Below are positions 1,590 to 60,275 of a stretch of DNA of 64,000 nt, piece by piece. The stretch spans positions 14,283,038 through 14,347,037 of the forward strand of contig NC_090294.1 in assembly GCF_037392515.1 (NCBI RefSeq), in the 5' to 3' direction. The notes under the pieces are model-generated. The model worked only from the letters and a program-made list of their open reading frames with translations. It made no database searches and was not told where the DNA came from. Each line of letters starts with the position of its first letter. Position 1 is the stretch's first letter. Source of the stretch: Haliotis asinina. Lineage: Eukaryota. The position numbers and the translations under genes were made by a program.

Positions 1590-1920
1590 CTGAAGTATTG
1601 TTCCACATATGGTAGGCCGCCATATAGCTGGAATATTACTGAGTGCGGCGTAAAACTAAGCTCACTCACTCACTCCACATATGGTGGTATTTACACCAGT
1701 GAATTTCCGGCGTAGAGGTGGTCTTCAGTGAGCCATGCTTGCCTCATGAGGCGACTAACGAGCCGGACCAGCTGTGTGGATCGATTATCATGCTGTTGAC
1801 CACTGGGTTCTGTTGTCCACACACTATTATTTCAGACCGCTGCCATGGAACTGGGGTATGGCTGAGTGCGGCGTTAAATAACCAACCAAAACACATCTAC
1901 GCCGACCTTGTTCCGTTCTA
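1590..1920. mobile_element. composite copy of the SINE-like family (box, (CACT)n, reverse-complemented core, second box)
   Basis: ggccgccatatagctggaatattactgagtgcggcgtaaaactaagct followed by (cact)n at about 1666-1680. Then …ccatgcttgcctcatgaggcgactaacgagccggaccagct…, the reverse complement of the family core. Then a second ggaactggggtatggctgagtgcggcgttaaataacc. Confidence 0.5.
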
Positions 1921-3629
1921 GCCTCCAACCTTTGCAAGTAGTTTGGGAGATCATAGCAAGATATATATTGTTACAGTGGGTTACCATGCTCAGTATGTTC
2001 ACAAGAAGGGGTTTGTTTTAAATTATGCTTGAATGGTTACTTGATTTCCAGTTTTAATGTCTTTCATGGAGTGCTAAGTTTGAAGTCATAGGAACGCTGC
2101 TGGCTGTGAAAGGTTTACCATAATGAATTTTCTCTGTAAAGCTAAGGGCAGCTGGAGCTCTCTGTAGTTCTTATGTTTGTTTTCAAATGCCATAATATGC
2201 AGCGATGAGCTTAATTATATCATCAATTTAACATCAAAGAATGCCCTCGAAACATTTTCAATAATGATCGAGATATTGAGGCGAATATGGAAATAGGCCT
2301 TTGTGCATTATCATCAAACAGATTAAAGTTGCTTTAAAAATTACCGAGTAATCAATGAACTTCACAAATGCACATGGTGTAATATGCACAGCACAATAAG
2401 GCCTAAAACCCCTAAATCCTCTCTAAAATAGGATTCTTGCAAGTAAAAGAGTTTCCAAGGAACTCCCGGTGATTTTACTCGAAGCATATGACTATACCTA
2501 AGTTTCATCTTGCATTTGTGCATATGTATTGCATACATGTGTTTGTACAGTATTGTCATTGTGAGACGAAGCTGTTAATACTGTTTTTGACATAAATACC
2601 ATTAATGGCGTACAGTACAGAACCTTTCGAGAGATCAAACACGTGATGTTTCAGCACATGTGCGGTATCTATAGACATCCACCTAGTGTTACCAAGCTAG
2701 TTTGAAATGTAACTGCATATTAAGAGTACAAAGTCGTCGCTCTTGAGGGTGGACAGGTTATACGATCAATGGCCAGAGGTCAGAGAATTGGGCATGGTCA
2801 TTTGAAATTGAATATCGACAACATTCATACTGAAAGTATCCCGTAGCTGCTCGCTGGTTCATGTTATTATTGCATTGTAGGTGGACGTACATGTGTGCTT
2901 GAGAAACGAACTGTATAACTTTCGTACAATGACATACAGATCTCCGTGTAAAACAACATTAACCAACGCACCTCGTTCCATATTACATGACCTAACTAAT
3001 TGCTGATATTGAATGTGGTGGTTCTGATCTTTTCTTTGCGAGTTAACATTCTTACAAAATTATATTCCCTCATTTTCCCAATCCTCAATCTCTGAGACTC
3101 TCTTCATAACATCTCATTTCATATTTTCTAATCAACAAAATCTTACCACATTGCAGAAAAGACAGATATATCCGACAAATACTTACTGGACCGTAACGTA
3201 ATTGAAGCATCCATATAACATATAGTACACTGGAACAAGTCAAGGCATGTAATTAACCTTTAACATACATATATCGATAATTGCAGATTTAATCATCTTT
3301 CTGAAGCCACTGAATCTTTCTTAGATCGCTAAAAACCATAAATAATATTCACCAAACTAATTCCGCGATTCCGTCAGTACGAAAGTGTATGTCCCCAGAA
3401 TGTGGTGATTACTGTGATATAAAGTTCAACATCTTCCACCCGGAAGCGAGTTTGGCGTTTAACGTAGTTGCATTATTCTTTAACGTGTCAAACTTCATGA
3501 AGACGAACACAGGAGACCCCATGACAAGGATTTGCAGGTGTATTCAATTAATTTGTTTTATTCAGCTCGCTGTTTCCTGGTCATATGGAGTTACGTCATG
3601 TAATAGTTTCTTGACAGCATCTATGGCAA

Positions 3630-4750
3630 GGAGTGACATTTTTCAACTCAAAGAGGCCCTTTAAATGTGAGAATGTTCATTCGAGTGACATAAATTAGAA
3701 CATAACAGGTTCCCATGCCGCTACTTCAGAGGTATGCACACACTCTGCCAACCATACAGTTAAGAAGATCGATGTCTTCACTCTTGCCACGGGCTTCCAC
3801 TCCATGTCCAATTCCCATCACCATGCATGCGTAAGTGCCATTACTTATTTAAAATGGAACATTGGTTGCAGAGGGGCGATTAAAAGTACAAATTCTAAAC
3901 TGATTGAGAAGGAATTCTGCTTTGCTGTTCTATGAGGAAAGTTTGTAATAAGACTAATAAGATTTATCAACCACCAGCGATTCAGTGTAAACCTAGTTGT
4001 CGAAACTGGAAGATTGAAATGACTCACCCAAAGATGCATTTGCACCACTTTATTCTCATAACCTTCAGAATGTTTTTCAAAACTAGCTAATACCAGTGAT
4101 GTTAGGCCACAGAATATGCTGTTTGTTATTCCACACTTTGGGCACGTCACAATCCTATAAAGGTTTTAATCCAAATGTTTCTCCCCATAATGACACCAAC
4201 AATAAACACTTCGTTTTTCTTTTCATATGTATCTTATATACCGGCAATGAGCTATATTTACTGTAAGCTAATATCTATTGTTCCTGTTAAAAAGAAAGCT
4301 GGAGGTAGGATGGTTGATGGCACTTGATGAACACGAATAATTTCAAATTGGAATGGTATGATTCCTGTAATAGTAATTACCAATTCTCCAAATTACACAG
4401 GGTAATATTCCAAGATATTAAAGGTACTAATTACAAAGTCTATACATTAATTGATATCAGATGGCCGAGTCACGTCTCTACTTGGAATCGACACGTGAGC
4501 TATTGTGATGGCTTAAAACGAATTTCCTTCTATTGATGGTTATTCTGGAAATATATGATTACCAAACCTAATTGCATGCTGCTGATATGTCAAGGCATTG
4601 TTGATGGTGGTAATAGCAAAGTCGTTACCTGGTTTGAAATTGATTCCAAACTGTCGAGCCTGACATACCTTCAAAGGCTGACCTCTGAATATAGTGATTT
4701 CAAAGCGTTTATATCAAATTATGAAGTCATAATGAATCATAAGTAGCTCG
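3630..4750 (+). repeat. ancient diverged segment, copy A (blocks R3 and R2)
   Basis: 3650-3910 (aggccctttaaatgtgagaatgttcattcgagtgacataaattagaacataaca…gcgattaaaagtacaaattctaaac) matches 9595-9860 at roughly 70% identity. 4540-4700 matches 10740-10900; ORFs 4555-4746 and 10657-10890 share …QGI-V/L-…FEIDSK/IETDSR…Y-L/P-QR. Confidence 0.5.
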
Positions 4751-5390
4751 TATGCAGCACGAGCATATAAAGAGCATTTGGCGAGTAAAATCGATACAGT
4801 GTTGTAAATTGTCGAGTCTGACATCCCATTTGCCTTTTAATTACCACTCACTTGGATTGCTGAAAACTAATTCTTGTACCAGGATCTTCACACTGTGCAC
4901 TGCACACTCACTGACACACTGAAAACGTGTCTATAGTTATGGAGGTACGAGGGGTGACTAAACACAACGATGGACTGCGTCGATGGAGGATTTTTTTACA
5001 TTCATAGCTTCCAAAAAAATGACAAACGATGCTGGGGGGATGGAATACCCCCTGGGAGACGTTTTATTTTGACTTATAAACCGACAGTGACGTCAGTCTG
5101 TTGTTCTCGGGGGACAATGTTTTCGTAATATCCCTCAAATCTGATACAATCACGCTTCCTGATGTAATTATTTAAATACTGTCAATCTGAACCGGGTCGT
5201 ATCATAATAACGTGCCTCTGGTCCGATCCGGAACTTTGAATTTTTACTTGTTCTGACTTTGTCTTGAAAACGCTGAATTTGATCGTAAATATGACATTAT
5301 TAACAATTTCCATCATGCAGTGCCGACACCTGGTTTCGAACCCGTTATCCTTTGCTCTCCGGCTTGGCGGTTGTCATCCCAGTTGATTTC

Positions 5391-5450
5391 ATATGTATAG
5401 TATATAGTATTTCATATATATAGTACACAGTATAGTATATAGTATATAGT
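5391..5450. repeat. (TATAG)-like short tandem repeat
   Basis: atatgtatagtatatagtatttcatatatatagtacacagtatagtatatagtatatag. Confidence 0.85.
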
Positions 5451-9569: not shown

Positions 9570-10900
9570 CCAGCGACTGATGCTTTTCCACCTAAAGAGG
9601 TCCTTCATATGTGAAAATGTCCTTTAGAGTGACGTACATGAGAACATAATCGATTCAGATGCCACTGCTGCAGCGGGATGCACACACTCTACTCTACTCT
9701 ACACTATTCAGTTAAGACTTTCAGTGTTTCTACTTTCCCTTTGGGCTTCCCCTCAACGTCCATTTCTCATCGCCATGCCTGTGCAACTACCATTACGCTA
9801 TCAAAACAGGTTTACTGACAGGAAAGTGACTGCAAAGGGGAGATTAAAAGTGCAAATTCAAGTACAAAGTTTCTGAAGTTATTTTTCTTTAACGCCATCG
9901 ATATTCAAGCTGTACGAGAGTGCAGACAAGAGAATACAACCATGAGCATCAATCTGCGCAGTTGGGATGGGATGACGAACGAACCTGACCACCTGGTCCT
10001 GTTAGTCGCATCTTCAGACAAGCATGGGTTGCCGAAGGCCAAACCTTTTTCATAAAGTTAAAAAAGGCGTCCTGCAGGGATGTTTGCTTCTAAATTGCAT
10101 CAGTCTGTTTAGCATTAACCATTTATAGACGATGTGTCAAAAATCAACAATTTAGGGGAAAAAAACGATAACATTACTCACAACTAGTCAGAGGAAATGG
10201 TTCAGTCAAGGAGGATTTGATTGATTTTTTGGAAGGCAGGGAGACATGCTTTTCAAACTTAATAACATCAGCAAAGGCGACGGAATTGCGCTCTTGAGCA
10301 TCTCAGAATTCTATAACAGTTAGTTCAAATTCAAATTCACATTGATTAAGATCTTTGGGGCGTTTGCACTGTCAGATTTTCAGGCTAAAACACTTTAGGT
10401 TTCAGAAATACTTCGTACTCTTTGGAAACCTCACAGCCACGTGTTGCGTTTTTACCTGAAACTGGTGGGCGGGCGAGAGACGATATGTGATTCCTCAAAT
10501 AAGCTGGTACATCTTCGAAATATATTGCTGTTGCATTTAATCACTCTTGACAATTTTTTATTCAAGTCATAAAATAACTGTTCAGTGCAGTTTTGCAATA
10601 GATGGTCGTGTGAAACACCCACAGGTACTACGTCAAAGCACTGTTAAAGTCCTTGGTTGAAAATGATTCTGATGGTTGAATCACATCTCCACTTACTACC
10701 TAAACGGTTTCAGACACATTTCTTATACTCGTGGCCTTTTTGGAAATGTATGATCACCCCAGATAATTATACACTGATAATATTTCAAGGGATCTTAGAA
10801 GACTGTAATTGCAAATTCTATACCTTGATTGAAACTGATTCCAGACAGCTGAACCTCGTATACCCTCAAAGGACTAAATTCTGGACATAAGTGAATACTC
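9570..10900 (+). repeat. ancient diverged segment, copy B (blocks R3 and R2)
   Basis: Counterpart of 3630-4750, same order and orientation. The shared short block cacaatcctataa (4153 and 11000) sits at a discordant position. Confidence 0.5.
9941..10046 (+). repeat. fragment of the SINE-like family core
   Basis: catgagcatcaatctgcgcagttggga…gaacctgaccacctggtcctgttagtcgcatcttcagacaagcatgggttgccgaaggcc is similar to the cores at 15990-16110, 56893-57010 and 58690-58850. Confidence 0.45.
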
Positions 10901-11579: not shown

Positions 11580-11900
11580 ATTCGGTCAAAGAGGATTTGG
11601 TCAAAGTACATCTCTGACAGAAATTTACTCGCGAAATTCGTGTCCCCCACACGGGTACACCACATGAAGTCCATTTCTGGTTTCGCCGTCGTGATGTCGC
11701 TGGAACATTGCTAAAAGCGGTGTAAGACTACACTCACTCACTTTTAAGTGCGAAGTAACCTCAAAATTGAAAAATTGTCACTCAGTTCGGAAGTGTTCGT
11801 AGATAAGTGTGCGAACCCCATTTCTGGTGTCCTCTGCCGTGATTTTGCTGGAATATTGCAAAAAGCGGCGGAAAACTAAACTCAGTAGTAGATAAGTACA
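11580..11900 (+). mobile_element. two tandem partial copies of the 3' part of the SINE-like family
   Basis: …tcccccacacgggtacaccacatgaagtccatttctggtttcgccgtcgtgatgtcgctggaacattgctaaaagcggtgtaagactaca(ctca)n. It is repeated at 11818-11895 as ccatttctggtgtcctctgccgtgattttgctggaatattgcaaaaagcggcggaaaactaaactca. It matches the head-end, box and tail of the 57233-57415 copy. Confidence 0.5.
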
Positions 11901-15057: not shown

Positions 15058-15927
15058 TAGTGAACAACTAATAATATACGTTATATGCTTATGATCGATT
15101 AGTGCTTCTCCTCTACGGAAATGTATTAAGATTCGGGATTTGTTTCCTCTTAATCATATACGGTACGGGTATATTTTACTATGAAATGTAAGTTCGTGAA
15201 AGTAAATCAGATCGACATTGCACACTTACCTGTAATGTTTAAGTATACATGCCACTTAATTATTTCCCTCCAGATATACACATTGATAGAATGTTTACTC
15301 TGACCATAGATTCGTTATTGATACAGGCCCCAGACGTTTTCCTAGAGTGATGGAAATGATCATTGAGAACACAGATCTAAATATCGTAAACTTATGTTTA
15401 ACACAGGCTGTTAGTAATAATAATTATATTAGAGTGCCATGGCCTCTTGAGATAACCATGGTGAGTTTTAACTTAGCTGCATTGTTTCTGAAATTGATGT
15501 GAACAGTACATAATTAAAATAAAATGTCTTTTTCTTTCCCTTACAATAAGGGATGGAAACTCATTATTATTAAAATAATGGCACTAAAACTAAAATACTA
15601 GGTTAGTCAGGACTGGAATTAAATTTTGTGAACAATTAAAAAATTCCCCGAGATGTTTCCTGAACAACAAAAATGCTATGAGAACAACAATGTCAATAAC
15701 ATTATATTTTCAATATGTAGCTATTATAAGGGCGACTTGATGGACCAGGTGCAAGGTTATTTCATTAAGTTCATTATTTCATTGAACATGAACGACGCGT
15801 GCGATTATTTAGTTATCGAGATCATTCTTATGACTCAGTTGTACCATTACTGAGGCTTGAAACAAACCCATCTACTCTTGAGAAACCTACATCCTCTTTT
15901 TTCTCTCAAATTTGTCGCACACACATT

Positions 15928-16160
15928 GAGTGAGTGAGTGAGTGAGCTTAGTTATACTATGGCCACCCGGCGGCGGTCAGTAAATAATAGTCTGTACCAG
16001 ATAAATCAGTGATCAACAGCATGAGCATAGGATGGGATAAGATAACATGTGTCAACCAGGTCAGCGAGGCTGACCACCTGATCCTGTTATTCGCCTCTTA
16101 AGACAAGCATGGGTTCTTGAAGATTAAGTCTAACCCGGATCTCCACGAGTCGCACTTAAT
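15928..16160. mobile_element. SINE-like family copy: (GAGT)n, box, core, 3' module
   Basis: (gagt)n at 15928-15946, then cttagttatactatggccacccggcggcgg, then …catgagcatag…gtcaaccaggtcagcgaggctgaccacctgatcctgtt…gacaagcatgggttcttgaagattaagtctaacccggatctccacgagtc. Confidence 0.5.
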
Positions 16161-23370: not shown

Positions 23371-25549
23371 ACACAACTGAAGACTTGGACAGTTCCATAA
23401 TGTGACTTGAAACACATCTTGTGAATGATCTGTGATGGGGTAACATTTCATTTTGACCCCAAGTCCCTTGTGTTTGATTCCGTGACCAGATTACTATCGA
23501 TTGGTGATTCTGTCTCATGCATGGTAAATGGTTAGATTTTGTATTGTAAAACAATAGTTCTATCATATATATATGTCCTGGTGTCGTCTTCATGAGGCAT
23601 AACATCAGGTGATAAGTTTCTTGTGTACATAAGTAAGACACAAACTGAGACTACTGTCATTATCTTTATGAGACAAGCAAAGGGATGCAAGGAATATATC
23701 TGAGCCTGTACGTGTTGCTGAATAACACAAACAAAAATTGTTCGATTGTTGCTCACTCACTCACTGTCGTACGATTTAAAATATATCATAATCACGTAGT
23801 TATAAATGTGAATAATAGCGATACTAAGTATTTGCGAAACGGTGAGCTCACCATTGGTCCGAATCACTGAGATCTGGTGGTGTGCAATTAGTCAGATTAT
23901 CTGTACACACTTTTCCATTTTTGTCAGCTCTTCTGGCAAGTATGAAGCACTTTGAGTGTGGTTTTGCTGCTTATTGCCACACTCACCTATATTCCAGCGG
24001 TAGGTATGTTACAGCTGTATGAATACTGAGGGAGAAAAAGAAGGGATCACATGAAAGCAGAAGCATTCCTTTATATTTTTCAGGTTTCTCCACAAGTTGT
24101 GCGACACACAGCTTGTGAAGAAACCTTTGACAAAATAATGGAAAATACTGCATTTCATGTGATCCCTTTTTTCCTTAGGTATATACAATTGATTCTGGAT
24201 GAAACACTCTAATGATAGATATCCTGAGCATTGACCTACACAACTGAGATGGAGTGGCATACATCCAAAAAGACAGAATGGGTTGCTGAAGATCAAGCCT
24301 AAATCTTTATGAGTTGATGAAATTGTGATTTAACACATCACCTCTTTAAGAATCATTCTCAAGGGTATAGCAAAGCATGAAGACAGCATCAATTTATGTA
24401 TTTAATTATCATTTCCAAAGTCATTACTTTAACATGACTTGGGAAATCGGTTTTTAAATTATGGACTTAGCATGATGAGATCGTTTCTTGAGAATACAAC
24501 AATTCAGGTGTAACAATTCAGAAAGAACGTAGAGGACATAATCATTTCATCAGTTTGAGACAACAAATATAACTTAATCTCCTGTTTGATGTGCGGATGT
24601 ATGAGTGGTGGTTCTACGTCGGCAATATGAAACCAGAATGACTTATTGTTCAAACAAATGATGTACTATATCACCGAGCCAAATTACTAAGTCTATTCCA
24701 TCGCTCTTTACAACTAGTTAGGGACAATTTCTCATTCCTGGAGCCCCCACGCGTTAGATACAAAACCAATTCAATACAATAAAACCCCACAATACTAATA
24801 TTCAGAAGGTCTTGTATTTGCCCTGGAGGATATATCGATATATTCACTTATGTCAAATCTTTGTTTCTCCTTAGATTCTGTGAACAAAGTCAGGCAATAA
24901 TTCGGTACACTCATTTACTTGAGTCGGTTGATCACGCAACAAATGACTATGATGAAGGTTTATAGCAGGTCGAAATGAGTCGGTCAGATAGAAAATTAAT
25001 TCAAAAGTTCTACTAAAAAAGTTACGTTACCTCCTTTGCTGTCAAGTCTAGTAATCGAAATGCAAAAAAAGCGTGATATGATGTCGTATTCCAATTATGT
25101 AATGGAGGGCGAAATTATGACATTGATTACCAAACAACAATGTTGGCACCAATATAGTTATGTAAACTGCACCGTAATTACATCAGATACAGATCGTAAG
25201 TCTTCACTCTAGACGCTCTGGTAAACGTAGGGATGTGTTTGTAAGTCACGTCGACCTCAGGAGTAGTCTGGGGTCGTCGCATTAAGGCTTGATATAAGTC
25301 TGGTAATGCATCTTGTTTCTGAAGTGGACCCAGATGACAGTGTTAATCAGACTGAAGTTCAGAGTGTCACCTCAAGGGAGCCCAATAAATCAGAACGTGG
25401 TGTTTTGGTAAAACATCACAGTGGTTTTATTCGCAATCCTTTTTAACGTACTGAGGAGACGGGATGCTTCTCGCACAGTTCATCGCTCCCATGGTCATAT
25501 ATGACCTTTTATAGTAATTCTGAAAGGTTTTACCTTTTTTACAGAACGA
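23194..25549. repeat. tandem duplication, copy 1 (2356-bp unit)
   Basis: The sequence from 23194 onward recurs at an offset of exactly 2356 bp. ORFs 23196-23417, 23206-23451, 23369-23641, 23532-23756, 23685-23870 and 24009-24296 recur at 25552…26652 with only single amino-acid differences. Both copies end …ccttttttacagaacga. Confidence 0.88.
24041..24168. mobile_element. MITE-like 128-bp element with ~20-bp terminal inverted repeats
   Basis: aagggatcacatgaaagcag at 24041-24060 against ctgcatttcatgtgatccctt at 24148-24168, a reverse complement with one mismatch. It lies inside the duplicated unit, with an identical copy at 26397-26524. A diverged relative lies at about 37121-37247 (tatgggatca…tgatcccatag, internal …cagcttatgaagaaacttgaaacaaaataagggaaca…). 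Confidence 0.4.
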
Positions 25550-27905
25550 GACTACCTCAACTTACTGCCCTGGATATGAATCCGATAGAGCATCTCTGAA
25601 ACACCTTTGTAGACAGTTGAGGCAACGGCAAACCGACAGCAGCTTGAACAAGTTCTCATGGATCTGTAGCACAGAATTCCTACTGACGTCATCCATGATG
25701 AGATATTTGGAACGTATGAAGACGTCACACAACTGAAGACTTGGACAGTTCCATAATGTGACTTGAAACACATCTTGTGAATGATCTGTGATGGGGTAAC
25801 ATTTCATTTTGACCCCAAGTCCCTTGTGTTTGATTCCGTGACCAGATTACTATCGATTGGTGATTCTGTCTCATGCATGGTAAATGGTTAGATTTTGTAT
25901 TGTAAAACAATAGTTCTATCATATATATATGTCCTGGTGTCGTCTTCATGAGGCATAACATCAGGTGATAAGTTTCTTGTGTACATAAGTAAGACACAAA
26001 CTGAGACTACTGTCATTATCTTTATGAGACAAGCAAAGGGATGCAAGGAATATATCTGAGCCTGTACGTGTTGCTGAATAACACAAACAAAAATTGTTCG
26101 ATTGTTGCTCACTCACTCACTGTCGTACGATTTAAAATATATCATAATCACGTAGTTATAAATGTGAATAATAGCGATACTAAGTATTTGCGAAACGGTG
26201 AGCTCACCATTGGTCCGAATCACTGAGATCTGGTGGTGTGCAATTAGTCAGATTATCTGTACACACTTTTCCATTTTTGTCAGCTCTTCTGGCAAGTATG
26301 AAGCACTTTGAGTGTGGTTTTGCTGCTTATTGCCACACTCACCTATATTCCAGCGGTAGGTATGTTACAGCTGTATGAATACTGAGGGAGAAAAAGAAGG
26401 GATCACATGAAAGCAGAAGCATTCCTTTATATTTTTCAGGTTTCTCCACAAGTTGTGCGACACACAGCTTGTGAAGAAACCTTTGACAAAATAATGGAAA
26501 ATACTGCATTTCATGTGATCCCTTTTTTCCTTAGGTATATACAATTGATTCTGGATGAAACACTCTAATGATAGATATCCTGAGCATTGACCTACACAAC
26601 TGAGATGGAGTGGCATACATCCAAAAAGACAGAATGGGTTGCTGAAGATCAAGCCTAAATCTTTATGAGTTGATGAAATTGTGATTTAACACAACACCTC
26701 TTTAAGAATCATTCTCAAGGGTATAGCAAAGCATGAAGACAGCATCAATTTATGTATTTAATTATCATTTCCAAAGTCATTACTTTAACATGACTTGGGA
26801 AATCGGTTTTTAAATTATGGACTTAGCATGATGAGATCGTTTCTTGAGAATACAACAATTCAGGTGTAACAATTCAGAAAGAACGTAGAGGACATAATCA
26901 TTTCATCAGTTTGAGACAACAAATATAACTTAATCTCCTGTTTGATGTGCGGATGTATGAGTGGTGGTTCTACGTCGGCAATATGAAACCAGAATGACTT
27001 ATTGTTCAAACAAATGATGTACTATATCACCGAGCCAAATTACTAAGTCTATTCCATCGCTCTTTACAACTAGTTAGGGACAATTTCTCATTCCTGGAGC
27101 CCCCACGCGTTAGATACAAAACCAATTCAATACAATAAAACCCCACAATACTAATATTCAGAAGGTCTTGTATTTGCCCTGGAGGATATATCGATATATT
27201 CACTTATGTCAAATCTTTGTTTCTCCTTAGATTCTGTGAACAAAGTCAGGCAATAATTCGGTACACTCATTTACTTGAGTCGGTTGATCACGCAACAAAT
27301 GACTGTGATGAAGGTTTATAGCAGGTCGAAATGAGTCGGTCAGATAGAAAATTAATTCAAAAGTTCTACTAAAAAAGTTACGTTACCTCCTTTGCTGTCA
27401 AGTCTAGTAATCGAAATGCAAAAAAAGCGTGATATGATGTCGTATTCCAATTATGTAATGGAGGGCGAAATTATGACATTGATTACCAAACAACAATGTT
27501 GGCACCAATATAGTTATGTAAACTGCACCGTAATTACATCAGATACAGATCGTAAGTCTTCACTCTAGACGCTCTGGTAAACGTAGGGATGTGTTTGTAA
27601 GTCACGTCGACCTCAGGAGTAGTCTGGGGTCGTCGCATTAAGGCTTGATATAAGTCTGGTAATGCATCTTGTTTCTGAAGTGGACCCAGATGACAGTGTT
27701 AATCAGACTGAAGTTCAGAGTGTCACCTCAAGGGAGCCCAATAAATCAGAACGTGGTGTTTTGGTAAAACATCACAGTGGTTTTATTCGCAATCCTTTTT
27801 AACGTACTGAGGAGACGGGATGCTTCTCGCACAGTTCATCGCTCCCATGGTCATATATGACCTTTTATAGTAATTCTGAAAGGTTTTACCTTTTTTACAG
27901 AACGA
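25550..27905. repeat. tandem duplication, copy 2 (2356-bp unit)
   Basis: Same as copy 1. The junction at 25549/25550 is acagaacga|gactacctcaactt. Copy 2 ends at 27905, followed by unique sequence tgatgtgataaatt. Confidence 0.88.
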
Positions 27906-28019: not shown

Positions 28020-28085
28020 AACGTGAGTGAGTGGATAATATTTTACGCCGCCTCAGCATCACTTGATCCATATAGCTGGTGACCA
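28020..28085. repeat. short fragment of the SINE-like family box adjacent to (GAGT)n
   Basis: gtgagtgagtggataatattttacgccgcctcag…ccatatagctgg resembles the reverse complement of the box at 1605-1665. Confidence 0.3.
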
Positions 28086-42535: not shown

Positions 42536-44094
42536 TATGAACTTCAGTTCATTGCCTGAATTTCTACTAAACTATAACCAGTGCTTTATTTGGGATCACA
42601 CTTACTCAGTAATGTACAGATTGTTTTATTCTTTCCTGAATCCCATCCGCTAGTCGAATGCACGCTGTCAGGTTGAAGCACCCAAGCGCCAGCAGAAACG
42701 ATGAGCTGTCTGAATGCATAGCCCTAGCGGCTTCCATGGAAATTGAGGTCTGACTGGCAATCTAGATCACGTATTTTGTGTATCCCTTTTACAAGTGCAA
42801 GTAATTGACAGGGCTCTCATGACCGACACTGTGAAAGAAAATGCCCTTTAAAAAGTGGTTATATGCATATATTTTTGTTTCAGTTGGTCGACTGATTCAT
42901 GTTAATGTTGACAGGGTATTCCCTTTCAGTTTCCATGACACTTATGCAATCTTAAACCAATATATACTTAATGGGTGTATTTCTAGATTAAACGAATCTG
43001 TGTAGATTGAAATTATAGCAAATGAGATTGTTTGTGCCTTGATCTTCAAAGGAGGCTGAAGTAGTGTCAAATTATTGTCCTCTCGAGAATGCACCTACGT
43101 TAAGAAGCATTTTAAGTTAATTTAAGCTTACCAGAGTATTTTTGTGATTAAATTAAAGCTAAAATTGACTACAATCGACAGCGGCTGAATGAATGATACA
43201 AATCAAGCTAGGGTCCAAGCAGGTAGCAAAGGTACTGTAAGTCCCAATGGTGCCTTGTATGGTGATCTTCAGTCGCTAGTGATCTTTGGCTCATTACAAT
43301 TCTGTATTGTACATGGAAGAGGTTTGATTTTAAAGTTCGAGGCTAGTTTTACTGATCTATTGGTGATTACCTAGTCATTTAACTGTCCTTTGCGGACAGA
43401 GTTAATAATAGATCTTTATCTGTTATTAATGAATGAATTGTTTTAGTCACTGTGTGGCTGAAATATTGCCGGTGTGAATGTAATGTTATCTCTCTTCATT
43501 TCATGAATTATCTAAGAATTATTCACAGGTGTAAACTGATACTTAAACACCTAATGGAGACATTTGAGTTCCACAGTGTTGCTACCGCAATGCTCAACAG
43601 ACAGTAAAACTCATTGTCGAGAAACGGAGAATAGGAAACATTCAAAGCAAGAAAATATGAACAATCAAGATTCTTGAGAAACAAAATCCCGAGAGGTTTG
43701 CTGTTACTAATTAGTTTCCCAAGGAAGACTGGAAAGCGTGGATTTCAGATGTCCAAAGACATAATACAGCGCACAATGCGGAGTCCAGCGATGGTTATGT
43801 TTCCATTAATATGATCACATTATAGTTTTCGAGATCTCACGACTGTCAATTATGGATCGTATTCGCTTGATTGAATATTTTCCTGGAGATAGATCGTCCA
43901 GTAAATTCTGTAATGTATCGACATATGACAGTAACCGACAATAAAGTAATCAAAATGTGATTATCAGGTAATTGTATTTTAAGTGTCCGAGAATTTCAGC
44001 ACAACGCAGGGGTATCGAAAAGCCGTTGTCAGGTTGTGCCAAATAGACGACATTTACACTGGATGCATCTCACTGGCGATAATTTCTCGTCTTT

Positions 44095-47228: not shown

Positions 47229-47260
47229 AAATAATCAATAACACCCGGAAATTGGCCAAC

Positions 47261-49440: not shown

Positions 49441-51339
49441 GAAACCAAGAATACACTTACCGTGAATAAAGTGTGTTAGTTTCGTTTTTCTCTGCTTCCA
49501 GCATTATTCCAGTAATATCAGGGCGGGGGCGTTGCAAGATGATGTTTTATCCGGTCAGTCCGAGTAAAACTATCCCCCAAAGAATTTAACTCTGACTCAA
49601 AAATATTATCCTCAAACCGTCACTAATTAAAATGGAAAAACAAATTGTAAAATATTTTTAAAACTTTTGATTATGAAATAAAAAATGTTTAAATTAACTT
49701 GTTAGGTTTTTGACTGTACCTGAGAATGTGTTCTGTATAGAAATAAAATTATTAACATGATTTTTATTACAAGAATGCAGTCTGAGAGAACAGTCTGTGG
49801 TCAATATAAGCTACCAATTTGACTCATAAACCACCTATTGGCTGAGAAGGTATTTCTTCAATGGTGCATTCCCACAATGTAAAAGCAAAAGTGTGTAATA
49901 TATGAAGTACTGCAAATTGAGAAGGAGAATACCAGACGTATGGTGAACAGTATCTCAACCACTGCCGGCATCCATCAGCAACACATTCAAAACATGCCAC
50001 CTGGCCACCGGAGCATAGACACACATAGTACAAGTAAAATAGGACTCTGAATCGGAATGTATTTCTGTAATGTCTTCAACATGTTGTCCACAAACCATTA
50101 CTTTGGCCGTGAATGCTTACCAAAGAATTTTTAAGCTGGATTCGTAAATATGCTTTATAGAATGCTCATCCAAGACTTTATGAGTCAGTGTCATTACTGA
50201 TGACACTGATGACTCTGTACGTTAAGTGTACAGGTGGGATCCGCCAACAACACATGCAGTAGCAAGTAAGATGTACACATGAACCATATACAAACATACG
50301 GTACAGGTTAAAATAGGAGATTGAGTCGGAAGGCCTTTCCTTTACTGATGGGCTAGGCCGTGAATATTGAAAACACAACCTTTAACCAAAGTTGAAAAAT
50401 ACTGCAGTCTTTGACGTCTCCCAAGACAGAGCATGGCTGAATACAACTTAATTAAAGCTGTGAAATATGGACATACTGGTCAGGAGTGTGCTTGACATAA
50501 GGGAACCTTTACTTTTGAAAACGTAAAGTCCTCTCTCTTGACATACGGACTTGCATTTGGTTGGTCTGAACAAGCATGGATCGAAAGACGAAAGACGATT
50601 TTGTATCATGTTGTCAAGGTTTCAAGGACTGCTTGTATCTGATGGTAAGGTCTCATCGCATTGCTGTTAATGACAACATGGACTTAAGTGAGCATCCCAT
50701 GGTAATTACGTAAGCTCAAGAGGCAAAACTCTTCGTTAATAAAATATATTTATGTCCATGAAAGGATATCAGGCCTACATTAATTACCTACGTTGTTTGC
50801 CACAATGTTGATTTGGTAAAAAATGTAGGACTTGTGTATATTGCATAGTCCTTGGTACCAAAGTTTACTAGTTTTTTGCATGTTCACAAACAGTATCAAT
50901 CATGTACTGACTGACACGATCTATGTTTGGTTTTATTACAGTAAAGTGGAACTGTTTTGTGAAACTGACATTTGGTACTGATATTGATTCAGATCGATCA
51001 AGCAACCATTTGGCTGAAATATTTCTATGGCAATGATGTTATTACACAATGCCGAACTTCATTGATTAGTGATGTACGACAGTACGTTTCATCAACTTCT
51101 CAAGGCTGTTTGTCCTGGCATTGACTAGAGGGGAAGGGTGAAGATTTCATACTGCAAAAGATTTGACGTTCCAATTAACCTTACCTAACCTTCAGATCTT
51201 TCGTCTGCGTGTACATGAGATAGCATATTGATTAGTTTCGGTTAACATTTGCATTTTCCTGCTTATCACAAATCGAATGTTACACGTACTTTTAAAATTA
51301 TTTCGCACTATTTCAAATATAGTTGTCAAATAACGTAAT

Positions 51340-52215: not shown

Positions 52216-53109
52216 ACTTTATATGTTTCCGACTGACAATTTCAGAGAACAAATATTCAATACATGTGGACGCACTTTTATATCATTTCACTTCGTTAAC
52301 GTACATTAGAGTTAGATCTGTGAGGACCCGGGTTAGAACTGGTTGTCAACAACTCATGCTCCCGTGACCGGACAATATTCATGCTGTACGCGGAAACTAG
52401 GAACCTTTGCACCGTACGTTTCTCATCCTGTGCGTCAGTGTTCACCATGAATACATGAAAGTCCGTCAAGGTTGTTAATGCTGTCTGTACACGCAGTAAG
52501 TATGTCACGCAGCAAGGAATAACTTGCTCCGTCAGTACAGTCACTGTAATGTATTGTAGATAGTTCTCATTGACAGTGAGATTACCACGAGATGCCTTCC
52601 ACTATTTGTGATGGAGGTACACTTGCAAACAATGGAATGCTGATTCTGAAGGTTTAGTTTCCAGACATCTTAACATCAAATCCATTGATGATTACTTTAG
52701 GTTTACGCCAATAGATGTGACAGACATAGCTGAGATAAGAGAGACAAGGAGTACCACTCTTACCGCTGACGGCAGCTGCTTAAGATATGAGGGTGCTATA
52801 CATAGGATGTGTTAGATATTCCCACGAAGATACAATCTGTAGAAAATTATAGTACTGAAATCCCAGGTCGAAGCAGATGTGGTTAACCTTTCAGTTAGTG
52901 AGGGAGTATAGGGGGTGTGGCTTCTCATACCGCTTTTGACATTTCCTGGTAGGCTTCAGAAATAAAAGAATAAATCCCATCTATAAAGTTTGTGTATGTA
53001 GTATAGACAGAGTGACATATCGGTGGAAGATATCTATGAATAAATCTGCTAAATACTGTGTATTATGACTTGCATTGTATAATTCATTCCAAGTGCTTTT
53101 CCTATCTTT

Positions 53110-54584: not shown

Positions 54585-54585
54585 A

Positions 54586-54620
<35 letters not shown>

Positions 54621-54783: not shown

Positions 54784-54818
54784 CATAGAAAAACACAAAA
54801 TATTGGTTTGAACAACAT

Positions 54819-55899: not shown

Positions 55900-56043
55900 T
55901 GCCGTGGGGGGTGTCTCTTTCTGTCAATGTGAGCTGTTCAATAACTTCTGAGGGTAGGATACGAAAACTTACATATCACATCAGCTACACCCCAAGGTTC
56001 AATGTCGTACCATAGGCTGTGAAACCTGGGTATGAAAAATGCT

Positions 56044-56073: not shown

Positions 56074-56892
56074 TATCGTAAGCAGAAACAGGATATGTTT
56101 TGAGATAGGATATGTGTTGGGATAGTATATGTTTTTGAACAGATCATTTAGTATTGGATAATTGACTTTCGCATATCCTCGCCAACAACAACTCGTCATT
56201 GGTCCACCGTACCTCCGTATAGAATAGCTGATTTCTTGGACAGCGGCAGCACCCCTGCAGTACATTCGTTTAGCGTCAGAGCATAAGGCAACTGCCATCT
56301 GTATCCTGCGATAGTGATGGTTCAGGATTGTTTCACTACATAGCGTCCAATATTTCACAGACCTCACTTGTCTCGTCATTCTCAATAACCCCTTCACACT
56401 TCGAAAATGACAAATCGCCTCCAAACCCCTTACCACCACTAAACACCCTTTTTACAAACCTGTTAGAAGACCTTAAATTCATTAGTACACTAATTATCTA
56501 CTACATCTTAATATTCCCTAGAAAAAGAGAAGTTGATAATACTTTACTGCACCATCAGGGTAGAAATGTGTTTAATATTTTATTGCTTTACCGATCCCCT
56601 GTGACATTTCAAAACGTAATGTTTTGTGAAGCGTCTGTATTGACGACTTTAATCAAGTATTGTCTTTTAATAGTTCAATTTTTAATGCTTGATGGCATAA
56701 TTAAATAGTCTATTTGGTAATGACGACGCAGTATCTGACGTATCATATGATTACCCTGATAAGATTCCACGTTCTTTGTGGTGAAGCGATTCATGTGGGT
56801 TTTGTATTGTTTTTTGTTTGTTTAGGGTTTCTTATTACATTTTATTTATTTTGTTGGCACTGTGTAAATAATCATGTCTGGACTAGACATTC

Positions 56893-57010
56893 CAATGATT
56901 GACATCATGAGCATCGGTCTACGCAATTGACTTGTGTCAACCAAGTCAGCGAGTCTGACCTCCCGACCCCATTAGTCGGCTTTTACGACAAGCATGGGTT
57001 GCTTGTGTTA
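56893..57010 (+). repeat. SINE-like family core copy
   Basis: catgagcatcggtctacgcaattgacttgtgtcaaccaagtcagcgagtctgacctcccgaccccattagtcggcttttacgacaagcatgggttgc. Confidence 0.45.
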
Positions 57011-57232: not shown

Positions 57233-57415
57233 AACTGAGTGAATGAGTGAGTGAGTGAGTGAGTGAATTTACACCTCCTTTAGAAATATTCCAGCAATAT
57301 CACGGCGGGGGGCACCAGAACATGGGCTTCACACATTATACCCATGTGGGGAATAGAACCTGGGTCCTCGGCGTGACGAGCGAACGCTTTAACCACTAGG
57401 CTATCCCACCACCCC
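57233..57415 (-). mobile_element. SINE-like element: tRNA-like head, conserved box and (CACT)n tail
   Basis: The minus strand reads GGGGTGGTGGGATAGCCTAGTGGTTAAAGCGTTCGCTCGTCACGCCGAGGACCCAGGTTCTATTCCCCACATGGG, with A-box-like TAGCCTAGTGG and B-box-like GGTTCTATTCC. It continues with …CCGCCGTGATATTGCTGGAATATTTCTAAAGGAGGTGTAAATT and then (CACT)n, which appears as (GAGT)n on the plus strand at 57233-57267. The same box plus microsatellite recurs elsewhere in the window. Confidence 0.6.
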
Positions 57416-58149
57416 ATTGGACAACTAATGGATAGCATACTGCCTCTTTCCCTTATGCTTTGGACACTATATAGTGAGTGAGCGTAACGTGCCAAAGTAA
57501 GATCATTTCAGCTCGGAAAGGAACGTTTCACCAGGAGTTTTCGTCTTAAGTTTCCACAGTCACGATTGACGACAACAAATCCTGCAGCAATTCATACCTC
57601 ACCAAGAAATATCCCAGAAACATAATGTATGAATAAATGTCCCTATGCTGTGTGTATAACGTGTATTTTGATTTACTGAGATGTGAACACGAACCTTGAG
57701 TGTAGAAAGATGTCCATGTACATCCGTCATTTAATATTCTCAATTGTCACTGAATGTTTAACCGACGTGGATGCTATGACATGTTAGTACATGAGCTTGC
57801 TCAAACAATACCTTCGTAATCAGATTATCTGTCACATGAGAAGACTTTTGTGCTTTATGCGTACAATATCGTCAGTGAAATAGAACGGTTTGACAATCTG
57901 AACATTTCTGACTGTTATCTAAGATAGATATTTCGTATGACATACTTCGGACACATCTGAAAACTAATTTAAACTAATGCCCTAGTTTACTTACGGCAGT
58001 AATGTGCGTTTTTGCTGCTTTGGGCATTGTAGATACGTTATACATACACCTACCACCTTGACAAATGAGAAAGGTAGAATGGTAAAAATGTTGGAATAAA
58101 AAGGATAAAGGAAATGAGAATGTAATAAAACCTCCACAAAAACAAGTCT

Positions 58150-58625
58150 ATTTGAAGGTCACGGTTAACCCGTAGGTGGCAACTTCCAAGGAAAACAGCA
58201 CACATATCGGCAGCATCGACAGCGCCGTCCTCGTCTGTGATGTTACCTACCTATCACTCACAAAAGGTGGCACTTACGAAAAACTATCAGTTTACGAGAG
58301 ATTATGACAATATAAATTATTTGAACTGAAGAGTCTGTCACCCTTTATCGCCTTAGAGCCCATATTTGAAAACAATAGATATGTCACATTTCGTTATAAG
58401 GAAAGAAACGACTGGAATATTTTTAGATCTTAATCTACACTTCCCCGCGGGCTTCAGGCAACTTCATGTTGCAGTCATTTTCTTGAGTCTAGTGCAAACT
58501 GATTTTGGATTTGATGTTCAAAATAGTTATAAACACGACGCTTCACTGTTTCTGATACAAATTAATTTGTTTCAGGAGAATTTGGATTCTTGTAACACAG
58601 ATTCATCATACTTTGATCAATAAAT
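58150..58625 (+). repeat. R6, copy 3
   Basis: ggtcacggttaacccg…atcgacagcgccgtcctcgtc…ctagtgcaaactgattttggatttgatgttcaaaatag…aaacacgacgc…acaaattaatttgtttcaggagaatttggat…. Confidence 0.65.
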
Positions 58626-58630
58626 TTCAA

Positions 58631-58878
58631 CTCAGTGAACTCAGCTAAATGACGGCGGTCTGTAAATAATCGAGTCTGGACCAGATAATTCAGTGATCAA
58701 CAACATGAGCATCGATCTGCGCAACTGGGAACCGATGACATGTGTCAACCAAGTCAGCGAGCCTGACCACCCGATCCCGTTAGTCGCCTCTTCCGACAAG
58801 CACAGTCGCCTTTTATGGCAAGCATGGTTGCTGAAGGCCTATTCTACCCCGGGATCTTCACGGGTCAGGATATGATAG
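58631..58878 (+). mobile_element. SINE-like family copy (5' module, core, 3' module)
   Basis: …gacggcggtctgtaaataatcgagtctggaccagataattcagtgatcaacaacatgagcatcgatctgcgcaactgggaaccgatgacatgtgtcaaccaagtcagcgagcctgaccacccgatcccgttagtcgcctcttccgacaagca…ggcaagcatggttgctgaaggcctattctaccccgggatcttcacgggtc. Confidence 0.5.
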
Positions 58879-59414
58879 ATAAAGATCCAAGACAATGATT
58901 TTCATTACCTGCAACGGATATATGTCTGTGGTCACAGAAACATGATTTACGAGAGAAGGTTTTCATTAACTTGTAAACACTGTCTGTCCATTGACACAAA
59001 CGAAAGCCCAATATTTCATACTCCACAGGCTTTGACGCTTTCATTAACCTTGTCTAACCTGCTGATATTTCCTCTGTGTATACGTGATGTAACATTTTGC
59101 TTAGTTTAGGCTGACATTTGGAATAAATGATTCCATTTCATTATCATGCCCAGACAAACGGCATGATTTAGAACGAGCTGTCTGCCAGCGGTCTCCTGCA
59201 GTCGTAAGACTATTTGAGCCTTGTCAACATCCTCTGGAAATTGAAGATTACGTTTGACGAGCAAAGGAGCTTCTAATGACAGAAGGTAAATAGCGTCATC
59301 ACAAACCTAATACACCGAGTTGGTTAAGTTCACCAACAAACATTGCAAATGGAAACTTTTACGAAGCTCCTTGATCTATCTCAAATCTACCAAAACTTTG
59401 GTATTTTTCTAAGG

Positions 59415-59458
59415 GAAAAATTCATCCAGTGAAAAAATTCATCCAGTGAATTTTTCAC
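59415..59458. repeat. short direct repeat plus palindrome
   Basis: aaaaattcatccagtg x2, then gtgaaaaattcatccagtgaatttttcac. Confidence 0.7.
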
Positions 59459-60081
59459 ATGTTCAGATAATATTGGTTTCAGTTTCCATTCAATTAAGCA
59501 GGTAATACCTTGACGTAATTATGTTGTTTACCTCCTTTTCTGCTCATACGTCGACAAAGCGAACACTCTGGAGTTTTAGCAGTCTCGAACAGACGCCGTG
59601 GCTTGATAGTTCTAATGTCGGACAGATTCGCTAACTTTGTTAATGCATGTCGTCAGCCCCCGACACAACACTGCTGTCCATGATTCCAGTCTACGGTTTT
59701 AGCATCCTCCATCATAAAGAAAAAAACTCAACATCTTTATATTTTATCAAAATATGTCTGCTCCTAATGACCCTCCCAAAATATGTATATCCTCCTGCAT
59801 GACCCGCACCACATTCTCAAAGTTGTACTCAGCCCTACAAAGAATGACCTTCCATCTCATGGAATAGAACGGACAGTGCCTTATGTCTTGATGTGTTACC
59901 TTGAGACCCTGTGAGACTGACCAAAGTGTGCTCACTTATAGCTCCTGAAATCAGTGTTTAAATGCATACCCCTTTTCCCCAGACCACACCGGTAAATATT
60001 GTACATGTATCATGTATCTTTGGACCTTGAGAAGAAGACAGCGAGTGCACTGTACAACAGCAACCTAATGCATCAATGTAA

Positions 60082-60275
60082 CAACTGAGACGACACGAAA
60101 GCCCCTTCTTGTTGTCAAGGGTAATGGGAGACCCGTGGAGATCCGGGTTAGAAACGATCTTCAGCAGCCCATGCTTTCTTAACACATATCATCGTATACA
60201 AATTGGTTGCATCAATGATCATGCTGTTAGTCACATGAGTGTCTGGTCCAGACTCGATTATTTAGAATATTCTGA
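60082..60275 (-). mobile_element. SINE-like family copy in reverse orientation, lacking the central core
   Basis: The reverse complement reads …taaataatcgagtctggaccagacactcatgtgactaacagcatgatcattgatgc…gttaagaaagcatgggctgctgaagatcgtttctaacccggatctccacgggtctcc, matching the 5' and 3' modules of 58631-58878 and 16100-16160. Confidence 0.45.

What the first reader, a model, noticed from the sequence alone, without database searches (positions are those of the whole stretch)
1590..60275. Abundant modular SINE-like family: tRNA-like head, conserved ~100-bp core, and (CACT)n tail, in at least nine copies in 64 kb
Copies or fragments lie at 1590-1920, 9941-10046, 11580-11900, 15928-16160, 28020-28085, 56893-57010, 57233-57415, 58631-58878 and 60082-60275. 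The modules recombine. The 57.2-kb copy has the tRNA-like head, the box CCGCCGTGATATTGCTGGAATATT… and (CACT)n. Other copies join the core CATGAGCATCGATCTGCGCAACTGGGA…GTCAACCAAGTCAGCGAGCCTGACCACC…GACAAGCATGGGTTGC to a 3' module …AACCCGGATCTCCACGGGTC. Some lack the core, for example 60082-60275. This chimeric modular structure resembles SINEs with conserved central domains, and the tetranucleotide (CACT)n tail is distinctive. I cannot tell without a search whether the core corresponds to a named central domain.
Basis: partly seen in the sequence, partly recalled or inferred. Interest (0 to 1): 0.5.

Follow-up and report, generated by a model that had tools for sequence, protein, structure and literature searches.

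The report
Two abalone retroposon families sharing a tail
The repeats are real but ordinary: decayed copies of a tRNA-derived SINE and a second short retroposon, which share a LINE-type 3' stem-loop tail and are common in abalone (Haliotis) genomes.

Summary
The listed copies exist and are far beyond chance (self-BLAST/nhmmer E 1e-8 to 1e-62). They are not one family.

- **Family A** (about 165 bp) is a classical tRNA-derived SINE. It has box A, box B, a short body, a stem-loop tail and (CTCA)n. The window holds one full copy, 57233-57415(-), plus 5'-truncated copies.
It has no pol III boxes and no Rfam match. It ends in (CTCA)n or (AAAC/AACC)n.
- **Shared part.** A and B share only about 45 bp: a stem-loop (CGCCG…GCTGGAATATTGC…CGGCG) followed by GTAAAAC.

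Target-site duplications of 10-13 bp and 5' truncation show LINE-mediated retroposition. Both families are abundant in Haliotis rufescens and H. cracherodii loci. The window's mariner remnant is also closest to Haliotis proteins, so the host is abalone-like.

This matches the modular mollusc SINE biology already published (Matetovici 2016; Nishihara 2016). No partner LINE lies in the window. Named central domains and Repbase/Dfam identity could not be tested. The one open point is the origin of B's head. Interest is low.

The parts
57233..57415 (-). Family A, the only full-length copy. It has a tRNA-like head (57325-57415), a short body, the stem-loop tail and (TCAC)5. It is flanked by an 11-bp target-site duplication, AGTTGTC[C/A]AAT.
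   Evidence: It is 90% identical to the A consensus. TSD p~0.017. Box A is perfect at position 13 and box B has 1 mismatch at position 56. Rfam tRNA gives 15.4 bits against a gathering score of 29. ARAGORN finds nothing.
11631..11744 (+). Family A copy, 5'-truncated within the tRNA-like head, with a (CACT)3 tail.
   Evidence: nhmmer E 1.3e-34; 81% identical to the consensus.
11800..11886 (+). Family A copy, 5'-truncated so that only body and tail remain. It is flanked by a perfect 10-bp target-site duplication, GTAGATAAGT.
   Evidence: nhmmer E 2e-23; TSD p~0.003.
1004..1077 (-). Family A tail fragment.
   Evidence: nhmmer E 1.3e-17; motif hit.
49468..49529 (-). A-like tail fragment, degenerate.
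   Evidence: nhmmer E 1.5e-7; 80% identical to the consensus.
1606..1674 (+). Tail-only insertion, extremely 5'-truncated, with the B-type loop GCTGAGTGCGGCG and (CTCA)3. It is flanked by a perfect 12-bp target-site duplication, TCCACATATGGT.
   Evidence: TSD matched by 0 of 300 random controls; nhmmer E 1e-8.
1693..1894 (+). Family B copy with a roughly 45-bp internal deletion and an AACC/AAAC-type tail.
   Evidence: nhmmer E 6.6e-49; alignments.
113..288 (+). Family B copy, 5'-truncated and old, with an AAAC-type tail.
   Evidence: nhmmer E 4.1e-18; 69% identical to the consensus.
9901..10049 (-). Family B fragment lacking the 5' end and the tail.
   Evidence: nhmmer E 7.8e-33.
15927..16153 (-). 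Family B full-length copy with a (CTCA)5 tail.
   Evidence: nhmmer E 2e-62; 78% identical to the consensus.
24182..24302 (-). B-like fragment inside copy 1 of the 2.36-kb tandem duplication.
   Evidence: nhmmer E 1.1e-7.
26538..26658 (-). The same B-like fragment inside copy 2 of the tandem duplication.
   Evidence: nhmmer E 1.1e-7; duplication shown.
28021..28085 (-). Degenerate tail fragment, GCGGCGTAAAAT...(CACT)n.
31077..31221 (+). Old B-like copy.
   Evidence: nhmmer E 2.8e-10; 66% identical to the consensus.
32911..32988 (+). B-like fragment.
   Evidence: nhmmer E 4e-5; BLAST E 7e-7.
52315..52374 (+). A 60-bp B-head-like segment joined to an unrelated downstream sequence.
   Evidence: Head-only nhmmer E 2.1e-13; sequence.
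56852..57003 (-). Family B fragment, truncated at both the 5' and the 3' end.
   Evidence: nhmmer E 9.7e-46; 82% identical to the consensus.
58621..58868 (-). Family B copy of the subfamily with a roughly 22-bp internal duplication (CATGCTTGCC.TAAAAGGCGACT x2). The terminal repeat is lost.
   Evidence: nhmmer hits; 84% identical to the consensus; 89% identical to H. rufescens copy L015:16955-17179.
60128..60322 (+).
   Evidence: nhmmer E 5.4e-43; the flank has no repeats; no Rfam hit.
28890..29140 (+). Family C, a third repeat family. It ends in a homologous tail hairpin with compensated arms (GTCAC...GTGAC) followed by GTTAAATATTAA(CTCA)-like repeats.
43250..43510 (+). Second copy of family C.

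Best explanation
The window is abalone-like (Haliotis-type) genomic DNA. It is littered with old copies of two non-autonomous, LINE-dependent retroposon families.

**Family A** is a tRNA-derived SINE. Its internal box A and box B would drive RNA polymerase III transcription (inferred).

**Shared tail.** The 3' tail is a roughly 45-bp stem-loop (CGCCG - GCTGGAATATTGC loop - CGGCG), then GTAAAAC and a tetranucleotide repeat. It is the likely recognition site for the reverse transcriptase of an unidentified partner LINE (inferred). That enzyme copies the RNA into a nicked target. This leaves 10-13-bp target-site duplications and frequent 5' truncation (both shown).

**Family B** uses the same kind of tail. 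Its ends are (CTCA)n or (AAAC/AACC)n. It starts with a fixed non-tRNA 5' end and has a different roughly 190-bp body. Its transcription mechanism is unknown. The most likely options are a borrowed LINE 5' segment (the 'LP-SINE' type) or read-through transcripts.

**Mosaic pattern.** Tails shared between otherwise unrelated bodies are the known result of template switching by LINE reverse transcriptase (established for SINEs, not shown here).
For: **Reality of the repeats.**

**tRNA origin of A.**
- The consensus has a perfect box A at position 13 and a perfect box B at position 56.
- The better-preserved H. rufescens copy L015:14616-14687 scores 30.1 bits on the Rfam tRNA model, above the gathering score of 29, with E 9.7e-5.

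**Retroposition.**
- Window target-site duplications: 57k (11 bp, 1 mismatch, p~0.017), 11.8k (10 bp, p~0.003) and 1.6k (12 bp, 0 of 300 controls).
- Haliotis A copies have 9-13-bp duplications with graded 5' truncation.
- Haliotis B copies have duplications abutting the fixed 5' end: CTCTGAACACG and ATAGACGTCAGA.

**Shared tail.**
- In the stem-loop, 86% of cells are paired, against 24-67% in slid controls.
- Only 1 of 500 shuffles reaches the observed covariation score.
- Family C keeps the hairpin with compensated arms GTCAC/GTGAC.
- Five of the seven (CACT)n tracts of 11 bp or more lie directly 3' of the tail module.

**Host and abundance.**
- The best named hits of the mariner ORF are all Haliotis, at 66-73% identity.
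- About 10 A and about 14 B segments lie in 62 kb of H. rufescens and H. cracherodii DNA.
- One B copy and the start of an A head lie on contig PEAW01034287.1.

**Literature precedent** for mosaic mollusc SINEs with stem-loop LINE tails: PMC4758252, PMC4824008, PMC11481361.
Against: - No partner LINE was found. The window has no reverse-transcriptase ORF, and the Haliotis loci yielded none. The LINE origin of the tail is therefore inferred from its architecture.
- Family B fails the strict SINE definition. It has no box A or B and no small-RNA similarity.
- Target-site duplications of the full-length B copies inside the window are not significant. They were seen only in the Haliotis copies.
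- The covariation support for the tail hairpin rests on few independent changes: 5 cells across 4 pairs.
- The proposed 5' hairpin of B shows no covariation.
- The tRNA species of origin could not be assigned.
Confidence: 0.85

Rival explanations
1. One reading: one modular SINE family (tRNA head + 100-bp core + (CACT)n tail) whose modules recombine among copies.
For: A and B share the tail. B occurs with two kinds of terminal repeat. A B-head-like segment is joined to another body at 52315.
Against: No copy in the window or in 62 kb of Haliotis DNA joins the tRNA head in sense orientation to the B body. B has its own fixed 5' end, flanked directly by target-site duplications. The 'core-less' copies have different deletion end-points, as expected from decay.
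Confidence: 0.07
2. Family B is not an element of its own. It is the 3' UTR of the partner LINE, seen as 5'-truncated LINE copies.
For: B carries the presumed LINE-type tail. It has no pol III promoter. LINE copies are usually 5'-truncated.
Against: At least eight copies from three sources start at the same nucleotide stretch, GA(C/T)CCGTGAAG. Two of them have target-site duplications directly adjoining it. Random truncation would give scattered 5' ends. Upstream flanks are unrelated to one another.
Confidence: 0.06
3. The repeats are MITEs or other DNA-transposon derivatives.
For: The window contains a mariner remnant and several palindromic repeats.
Against: A and B have no terminal inverted repeats. 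Their target-site duplications vary from 9 to 13 bp. They show graded 5' truncation and a polar 3' simple-repeat tail.
Confidence: 0.02

Closest known systems
tRNA-derived SINEs with 'stringent' LINE-type 3' tails (stem-loop plus short tandem repeats), as in the UnaL2/UnaSINE1 pair and the CR1/L2-tailed mollusc SINEs BivaV-SINE2 and BivaCORE-SINE1/2 (PMC4824008)
   Same: Family A has a tRNA head with A and B boxes, a short body, a 3' stem-loop followed by a simple repeat, target-site duplications and 5' truncation. Compensated stems occur between families that share the tail type.
   Different: The partner LINE and its clade are unidentified. Family A has no long conserved central domain: only about 25 bp lie between head and tail. 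The terminal repeat is (CTCA)n.
Mosaic 'jigsaw' SINEs of gastropods and bivalves (Matetovici et al. 2016, PMC4758252; Martelossi et al. 2024, PMC11481361)
   Same: Different heads and bodies are combined with homologous tails within one genome. Tetranucleotide terminal repeats occur there too: (CACT)n is reported for Bathymodiolus MESC SINEs and (CAAA)n as a common repeat.
   Different: The published Haliotis MESC/MetaSINE (Hdi = HalSINE1) is described as ending in (CACCT)n with an internal (CA)n tract. Neither A nor B has these.
LP-SINEs: retroposons with a roughly 70-bp head derived from a LINE 5' UTR, reported in Haliotis diversicolor and H. midae, Littorina, and Ostrea and Saccostrea (PMC4758252)
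   Same: Family B resembles them in several ways. It has a non-small-RNA head with a fixed 5' end, target-site duplications and a tandem-repeat tail. It lives in a Haliotis-type genome and shares its tail with a tRNA-derived SINE. A B-head-like segment also occurs on another body (52315-52374).
   Different: Homology of the B head to the Nimb-17_LMi, I-3_DR or RTE-9_CPB 5' ends could not be tested. [quoted passage not shown]
RIME/ingi and NARTc/L1Tc of trypanosomatids: non-autonomous deletion derivatives that keep the LINE 5' and 3' ends
   Same: This is a possible model for B: a short element that keeps a conserved 5' segment and the LINE-type 3' end without a small-RNA head.
   Different: No LINE with the B head is known here. 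This is an analogy only.

Membership tests
tRNA-derived SINE (family A) | 5' head derived from a tRNA, with internal pol III box A and box B at the proper spacing | tested here: met
   The consensus has box A TAGCCTAGTGG at position 13 and box B GGTTCGATTCC at position 56. The window copy has 0 and 1 mismatch respectively. Rfam tRNA gives 30.1 bits (gathering score 29) for L015:14616-14687 and 15.4 bits for the decayed window copy. ARAGORN finds none, as expected for a pseudo-tRNA.
tRNA-derived SINE (family A) | Short, non-coding, dispersed and multi-copy | tested here: met
   The element is about 165 bp. There are 5 segments in the window and about 10 in 62 kb of Haliotis DNA.
tRNA-derived SINE (family A) | Insertion by LINE machinery: variable target-site duplications, 5' truncation and a polar 3' tail | tested here: met
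   Window duplications. Haliotis copies have 9-13-bp duplications with graded truncation.
tRNA-derived SINE (family A) | 3' tail homologous to the 3' end of a partner LINE | not testable with these tools
   No LINE was found in the window or in the fetched loci, and no repeat library is available. Only the stem-loop-plus-repeat architecture was shown.
SINE in the strict sense (family B) | Head derived from a small pol III RNA (tRNA, 5S, 7SL, snRNA) with an internal promoter | tested here: not met
   There is no box A or B within 1 mismatch. Rfam gives no hit at E<=10 for window 60060-60340 or at E<=5 for L015:7500-7790.
LINE-dependent non-autonomous retroposon (family B) | Fixed 5' end, target-site duplications, a 3' simple-repeat tail and no ORF | tested here: met
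   The common 5' end GA(C/T)CCGTGAAG is shown. Duplications of 11 and 12 bp directly flank L015 copies. The tails are (CTCA)n or (AAAC/AACC)n. Duplications of the window's own full-length B copies are not significant.
LP-SINE (Matetovici 2016) | First ~70 bp homologous to the 5' end of Nimb/RTE LINE 5' UTRs (Nimb-17_LMi, I-3_DR, RTE-9_CPB) | not testable with these tools
   The reference sequences are only in figures and Repbase. The paper text holds no sequence.
MESC/MetaSINE of Haliotis (Hdi = HalSINE1) | tRNA head followed by the 66-100-bp Meta/MESC domain; Haliotis members carry an internal (CA)n tract and end in (CACCT)n (PMC4758252) | tested here: not met
   A has only about 25 bp between head and tail. 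B has no tRNA head. Neither has a (CA)n tract or a (CACCT)n tail. Domain homology itself could not be tested.
Other conserved-domain SINE superfamilies (V/Vhc, Deu/Nin-DC, CORE, Snail, Ceph) | Sequence homology of the body to the named central domain | not testable with these tools
A full-text search for six 14-17-mers of A and B found no paper.
MITE / DNA transposon | Terminal inverted repeats and fixed-length target-site duplications | tested here: not met
   The ends are asymmetric: head against simple-repeat tail. Duplications vary from 9 to 13 bp, and copies are 5'-truncated.

The most novel reading that the evidence does not exclude
Family B may be a 'headless' retroposon whose conserved 5' 60 bp, with a possible hairpin TGAAGA...TCTTCA, is borrowed from the 5' end of its partner LINE. 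That segment would act as a promoter or processing signal, as proposed for LP-SINEs and as in RIME/NARTc. B would then be an abundant abalone example of non-pol-III SINE-like mobilisation, sharing its 3' recognition hairpin with a classical tRNA SINE in the same genome.
Probability: 0.3. Interest if true: 0.35.

Novelty: new member of a known kind. Interest (0 to 1): 0.15.

Why it matters
It matters little beyond annotation.
- It identifies about 4% of this window as two (or three) retroposon families typical of abalone genomes.
- It explains why (CACT)n microsatellites in this DNA sit next to a conserved 45-bp box.
- It gives consensus sequences that could be used for masking.

The only point of wider interest is family B. 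It is a short, abundant element flanked by target-site duplications, it has no pol III head, and it shares a tail type with a tRNA SINE. Such elements bear on how non-autonomous retroposons get transcribed. The phenomenon (LP-SINEs) has already been described in Haliotis and other molluscs.

Tried and rejected
1. **5S rRNA origin of the B head.** An apparent resemblance of the 60082-60127 flank plus B 5' end to the 3' part of 5S rRNA was rejected. Rfam gives no 5S or tRNA hit. The 45-bp stretch upstream of 60128 is unique flanking DNA.
2. **Pattern scans of public collections.**
 - The four viral-contig hits (L001-L004) are chance matches inside phage coding sequence.
 - Genome contigs gave nothing in two scans.
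 - Two further viral scans gave nothing.
 - The metagenome scan gave one informative contig, L005.
3. **Translating the B consensus** to fish for TE-derived predicted proteins. Only the ORF on that same contig was found.
4. **Exact-protein look-ups.** The look-up of the window's mariner ORF failed. Two H. asinina proteins were also not on record.
5. **ENA loci L008-L013.** They carry a related mariner but no A or B copy, so they come from a different organism or are uninformative.
6. **Search for a partner LINE.**
 - The window has no ORF longer than 213 aa. Only a mariner HTH domain was found.
 - RT motif greps gave isolated YADD strings with no RT context.
 - Two ORFs in L007 are not RT.
7. 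**Literature.** Searches for sequence strings, accession PEAW01/GCA_002753775 and (ACTC)n microsatellites in abalone gave nothing usable.
8. **B 5' hairpin.** RNAalifold did not predict it. Pair counting showed conservation but no covariation.
9. **Lead from memory only, not tested.** The tail (…GCTGGAA…GCGGCGTAAAAC) resembles the stem-loop region …GCGGCTGGAAGGGCATCCGCTGCGTAAAAAC… near the 3' end of zebrafish DANA. This might point to a CR1/L2-like partner.

Full report
**What the window is.** The window is AT-rich (about 39% G+C) eukaryotic DNA, rich in repeats, with no long open reading frame. The one recognisable coding remnant is a mariner-type transposase at 54767-55923(-). Its best named relatives are all from Haliotis rufescens, H. 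asinina and H. cracherodii, at 66-73% identity. Identity falls to 58% or less outside that group. The host is therefore an abalone or a close relative. This is an inference, backed by the repeat families described below.

**Checking the observation.** Each of the nine intervals contains sequence that matches other intervals far better than chance.
- Pairwise BLAST E-values run from 1e-8 to 1e-32 at 65-85% identity.
- Profile searches reach E 2e-62.
- A 24-nt degenerate tail motif occurs five times, against 0.02 expected in shuffled sequence.

The repeats are real. Aligning them with the simple-repeat tail placed at the 3' end shows two families, not one.

**Family A.** The consensus was built from the window and Haliotis copies. 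Its first 12 nt come from a single copy.

GGGGCGGTCGGGTAGCCTAGTGGTTAAAGCGTTCGCTCGTCACGCCGAAGACCCGGGTTCGATTCCCGACATGGGTACAATGTGTGAAGCCCATTTCTGGTGTCCCCCGCCGTGATATTGCTGGAATATTGCTAAAAGCGGCGTAAAACCATA(CTCA)n

- It has a perfect pol III box A at position 13 and a perfect box B at position 56.
- The window has one full copy at 57233-57415(-). It is 90% identical to the consensus and is flanked by an 11-bp duplication with one mismatch.
- There are 5'-truncated copies at 11631-11744 and at 11800-11886. The latter has a perfect 10-bp duplication.
- Tail fragments lie at 1004-1077 and 49468-49529.
- The tRNA-like head occurs only once in the window.
ARAGORN finds nothing. The Rfam tRNA model gives 15.4 bits, below the gathering score of 29.
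- A better-preserved copy in H. rufescens scores 30.1 bits, E 9.7e-5. The tRNA origin is therefore established. The tRNA species is not.

**Family B.** The consensus is.

GACCCGTGAAGATCCCGGGTAGAATAGGTCTTCAGCAACCCATGCTTGTCGTAAAAGGCGACTAACGGGATCGGGTGGTCAGGCTCGCTGACTTGGTTGATGCATGTCATCGATCCCAATTGCGTGGATCGATGCTCATGATGTTAATCACTGGATTGTCTGGTCCAGACTCGATTATTTACAGACCGCCGTCATATAGCTGGAATATTGCTGAGTGCGGCGTTAAACAACAAAC(CAAC)n

- Window copies, 66-84% identical to the consensus:
  - 15927-16153(-), full length, (CTCA)5 tail
  - 58621-58868(-), subfamily with a 22-bp internal duplication
  - 60128-60322(+) and 1693-1894(+), each with a different internal deletion and an AAAC/AACC-type tail
  - 113-288(+), 9901-10049(-), 56852-57003(-), 31077-31221(+), 32911-32988(+)
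  - 24182-24302(-) and 26538-26658(-), two copies of one fragment inside a tandem duplication
  - 1606-1674(+), a tail-only insertion with a perfect 12-bp duplication
- B has no box A or B within one mismatch.
- It has no Rfam match, either in the window or in a well-preserved H. rufescens copy.

**Evidence from elsewhere.**
- A metagenome-collection contig, PEAW01034287.1, carries a B copy and the start of an A head.
- I fetched 62 kb around mariner genes in H. rufescens (L007, L015) and H. cracherodii (L014).
  - They contain about ten A and about fourteen B segments.
  - Some are 88-89% identical to window copies.
- In these younger copies the insertion signatures are clear.
  - A copies have 9-13-bp duplications with graded 5' truncation.
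  - B copies have 11- and 12-bp duplications that directly abut GA(C/T)CCGTGAAG.

B is therefore a discrete element with a fixed 5' end. It is not a randomly truncated LINE 3' UTR, and it is not a DNA transposon.

**The shared module.** A and B share only the last 45 bp or so: a stem (CGCCG(T/C) with G…CGGCG) around a loop that contains GCTGGAATATTGC, followed by GTAAAAC/GTTAAAC and the simple repeat.
- Across 27 tails, 86% of stem cells form pairs, against 24-67% when the partner columns are slid.
- Only 1 of 500 shuffles reaches the observed covariation score.
- A third family, C (28890-29140 and 43250-43510), ends in the same hairpin with compensated arms GTCAC/GTGAC.
- Five of the seven (CACT)n tracts of 11 bp or more in the window lie immediately 3' of this module. 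This explains the distinctive microsatellite.

A stem-loop followed by short tandem repeats is the architecture of 'stringent' LINE 3' ends. It has been reported, with compensatory changes, for CR1/L2-tailed mollusc SINEs (PMC4824008). No LINE is present in the window or in the fetched loci. The partner therefore remains inferred.

**Mechanism.**
- Shown: the tRNA-type promoter boxes in A, the fixed 5' end of B, the target-site duplications, the 5' truncation, the polar tail, and the conserved tail stem-loop shared by unrelated bodies.
- Inferred: pol III transcription of A, recognition of the tail hairpin by a LINE reverse transcriptase with target-primed reverse transcription, and acquisition of the common tail by template switching.
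- Unknown: how B is transcribed. A LINE-derived head of the LP-SINE type, already described in Haliotis diversicolor and H. midae (PMC4758252), is the leading idea. A B-head-like 60 bp joined to another body at 52315-52374 fits a portable head module. Homology to the published LP head could not be tested. The candidate 5' hairpin shows no covariation.

**Comparison with what is known.** Mosaic SINEs with exchangeable heads, bodies and tails are well documented in gastropods and bivalves (PMC4758252, PMC4824008, PMC11481361). SINEs make up 1.64% of the H. asinina assembly in routine annotation (PMC11393055). The named Haliotis MESC/MetaSINE ends in (CACCT)n and has an internal (CA)n tract, which neither A nor B shows. 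Whether A and B already have Repbase or Dfam names, and whether the B body contains a named central domain, cannot be decided here.

**Verdict.** The interpretation 'modular SINE-like repeats' is right in kind. This is ordinary, old repeat content of an abalone-type genome. The one modestly interesting open point is the origin of family B's head.

Noticed in passing
window 23190-25549 and 25546-27905: A 2,360-bp direct tandem duplication, 99.8% identical. It is either a very recent segmental duplication or an assembly artefact. Each unit carries a B-like fragment and a 136-bp palindrome (24037-24172 and 26393-26528).
   Followed up: no
window 44830-45393: A tandem array with a 94-bp unit, about 6 copies, 96% identical.
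   Followed up: no
window 21566-22021: A tandem repeat with a unit of about 160 bp, 78-83% identical between units.
   Followed up: no
window 54767-55923 (-): A decayed mariner/Tc1-type transposase with HTH_48 and HTH_32 domains. Its closest named relatives are Haliotis 'SETMAR-like' and 'GVQW3-like' proteins. I used it to fetch the Haliotis loci.
   Followed up: partly
window 28890-29140 and 43250-43510 (+): A third repeat family, C, of at least 250 bp. It ends in a tail hairpin homologous to that of A and B but with compensated stem arms (GTCAC/GTGAC) and a CTCA-like repeat. Its head was not characterised.
   Followed up: partly
window 56217-56796~37909-38488; 58113-58638~40378-40933; 53915-54532~43814-44444~35772-36141; 9566-9890~3622-3923; 18601-18974~7093-7492~11890-12185: Several other dispersed repeat families of 300-650 bp, 60-67% identical between copies, unrelated to A and B. 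They are unclassified.
   Followed up: no
window 48185-48342, 5459-5611, 47150-47238, 42333-42399: Palindromic (self-reverse-complementary) segments of 67-160 bp, 72-85% complementary. They may be MITE-like elements or foldback repeats.
   Followed up: no
L014:12246-12369 (H. cracherodii): A 5'-truncated A copy with a 13-bp target-site duplication (TATTCTGTAATGG). It begins with an untemplated G-rich run, GGGAGGAGGGGGGGGGGG, between the duplication and the element. This looks like extra nucleotides added at the 5' junction during retroposition.
   Followed up: no
L008-L013 (ENA assemblies ERZ25073280 and ERZ25073285): Long contigs from assemblies filed as metagenomes carry an intact mariner 72-75% identical to the window's remnant. 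They have no A or B copies in about 55 kb of non-redundant sequence. They probably come from a different invertebrate host genome.
   Followed up: no
L015:13264-13474 (H. rufescens): A B copy truncated at its 5' end lies directly against an antisense A head. This is a nested or adjacent insertion of the two families.
   Followed up: no
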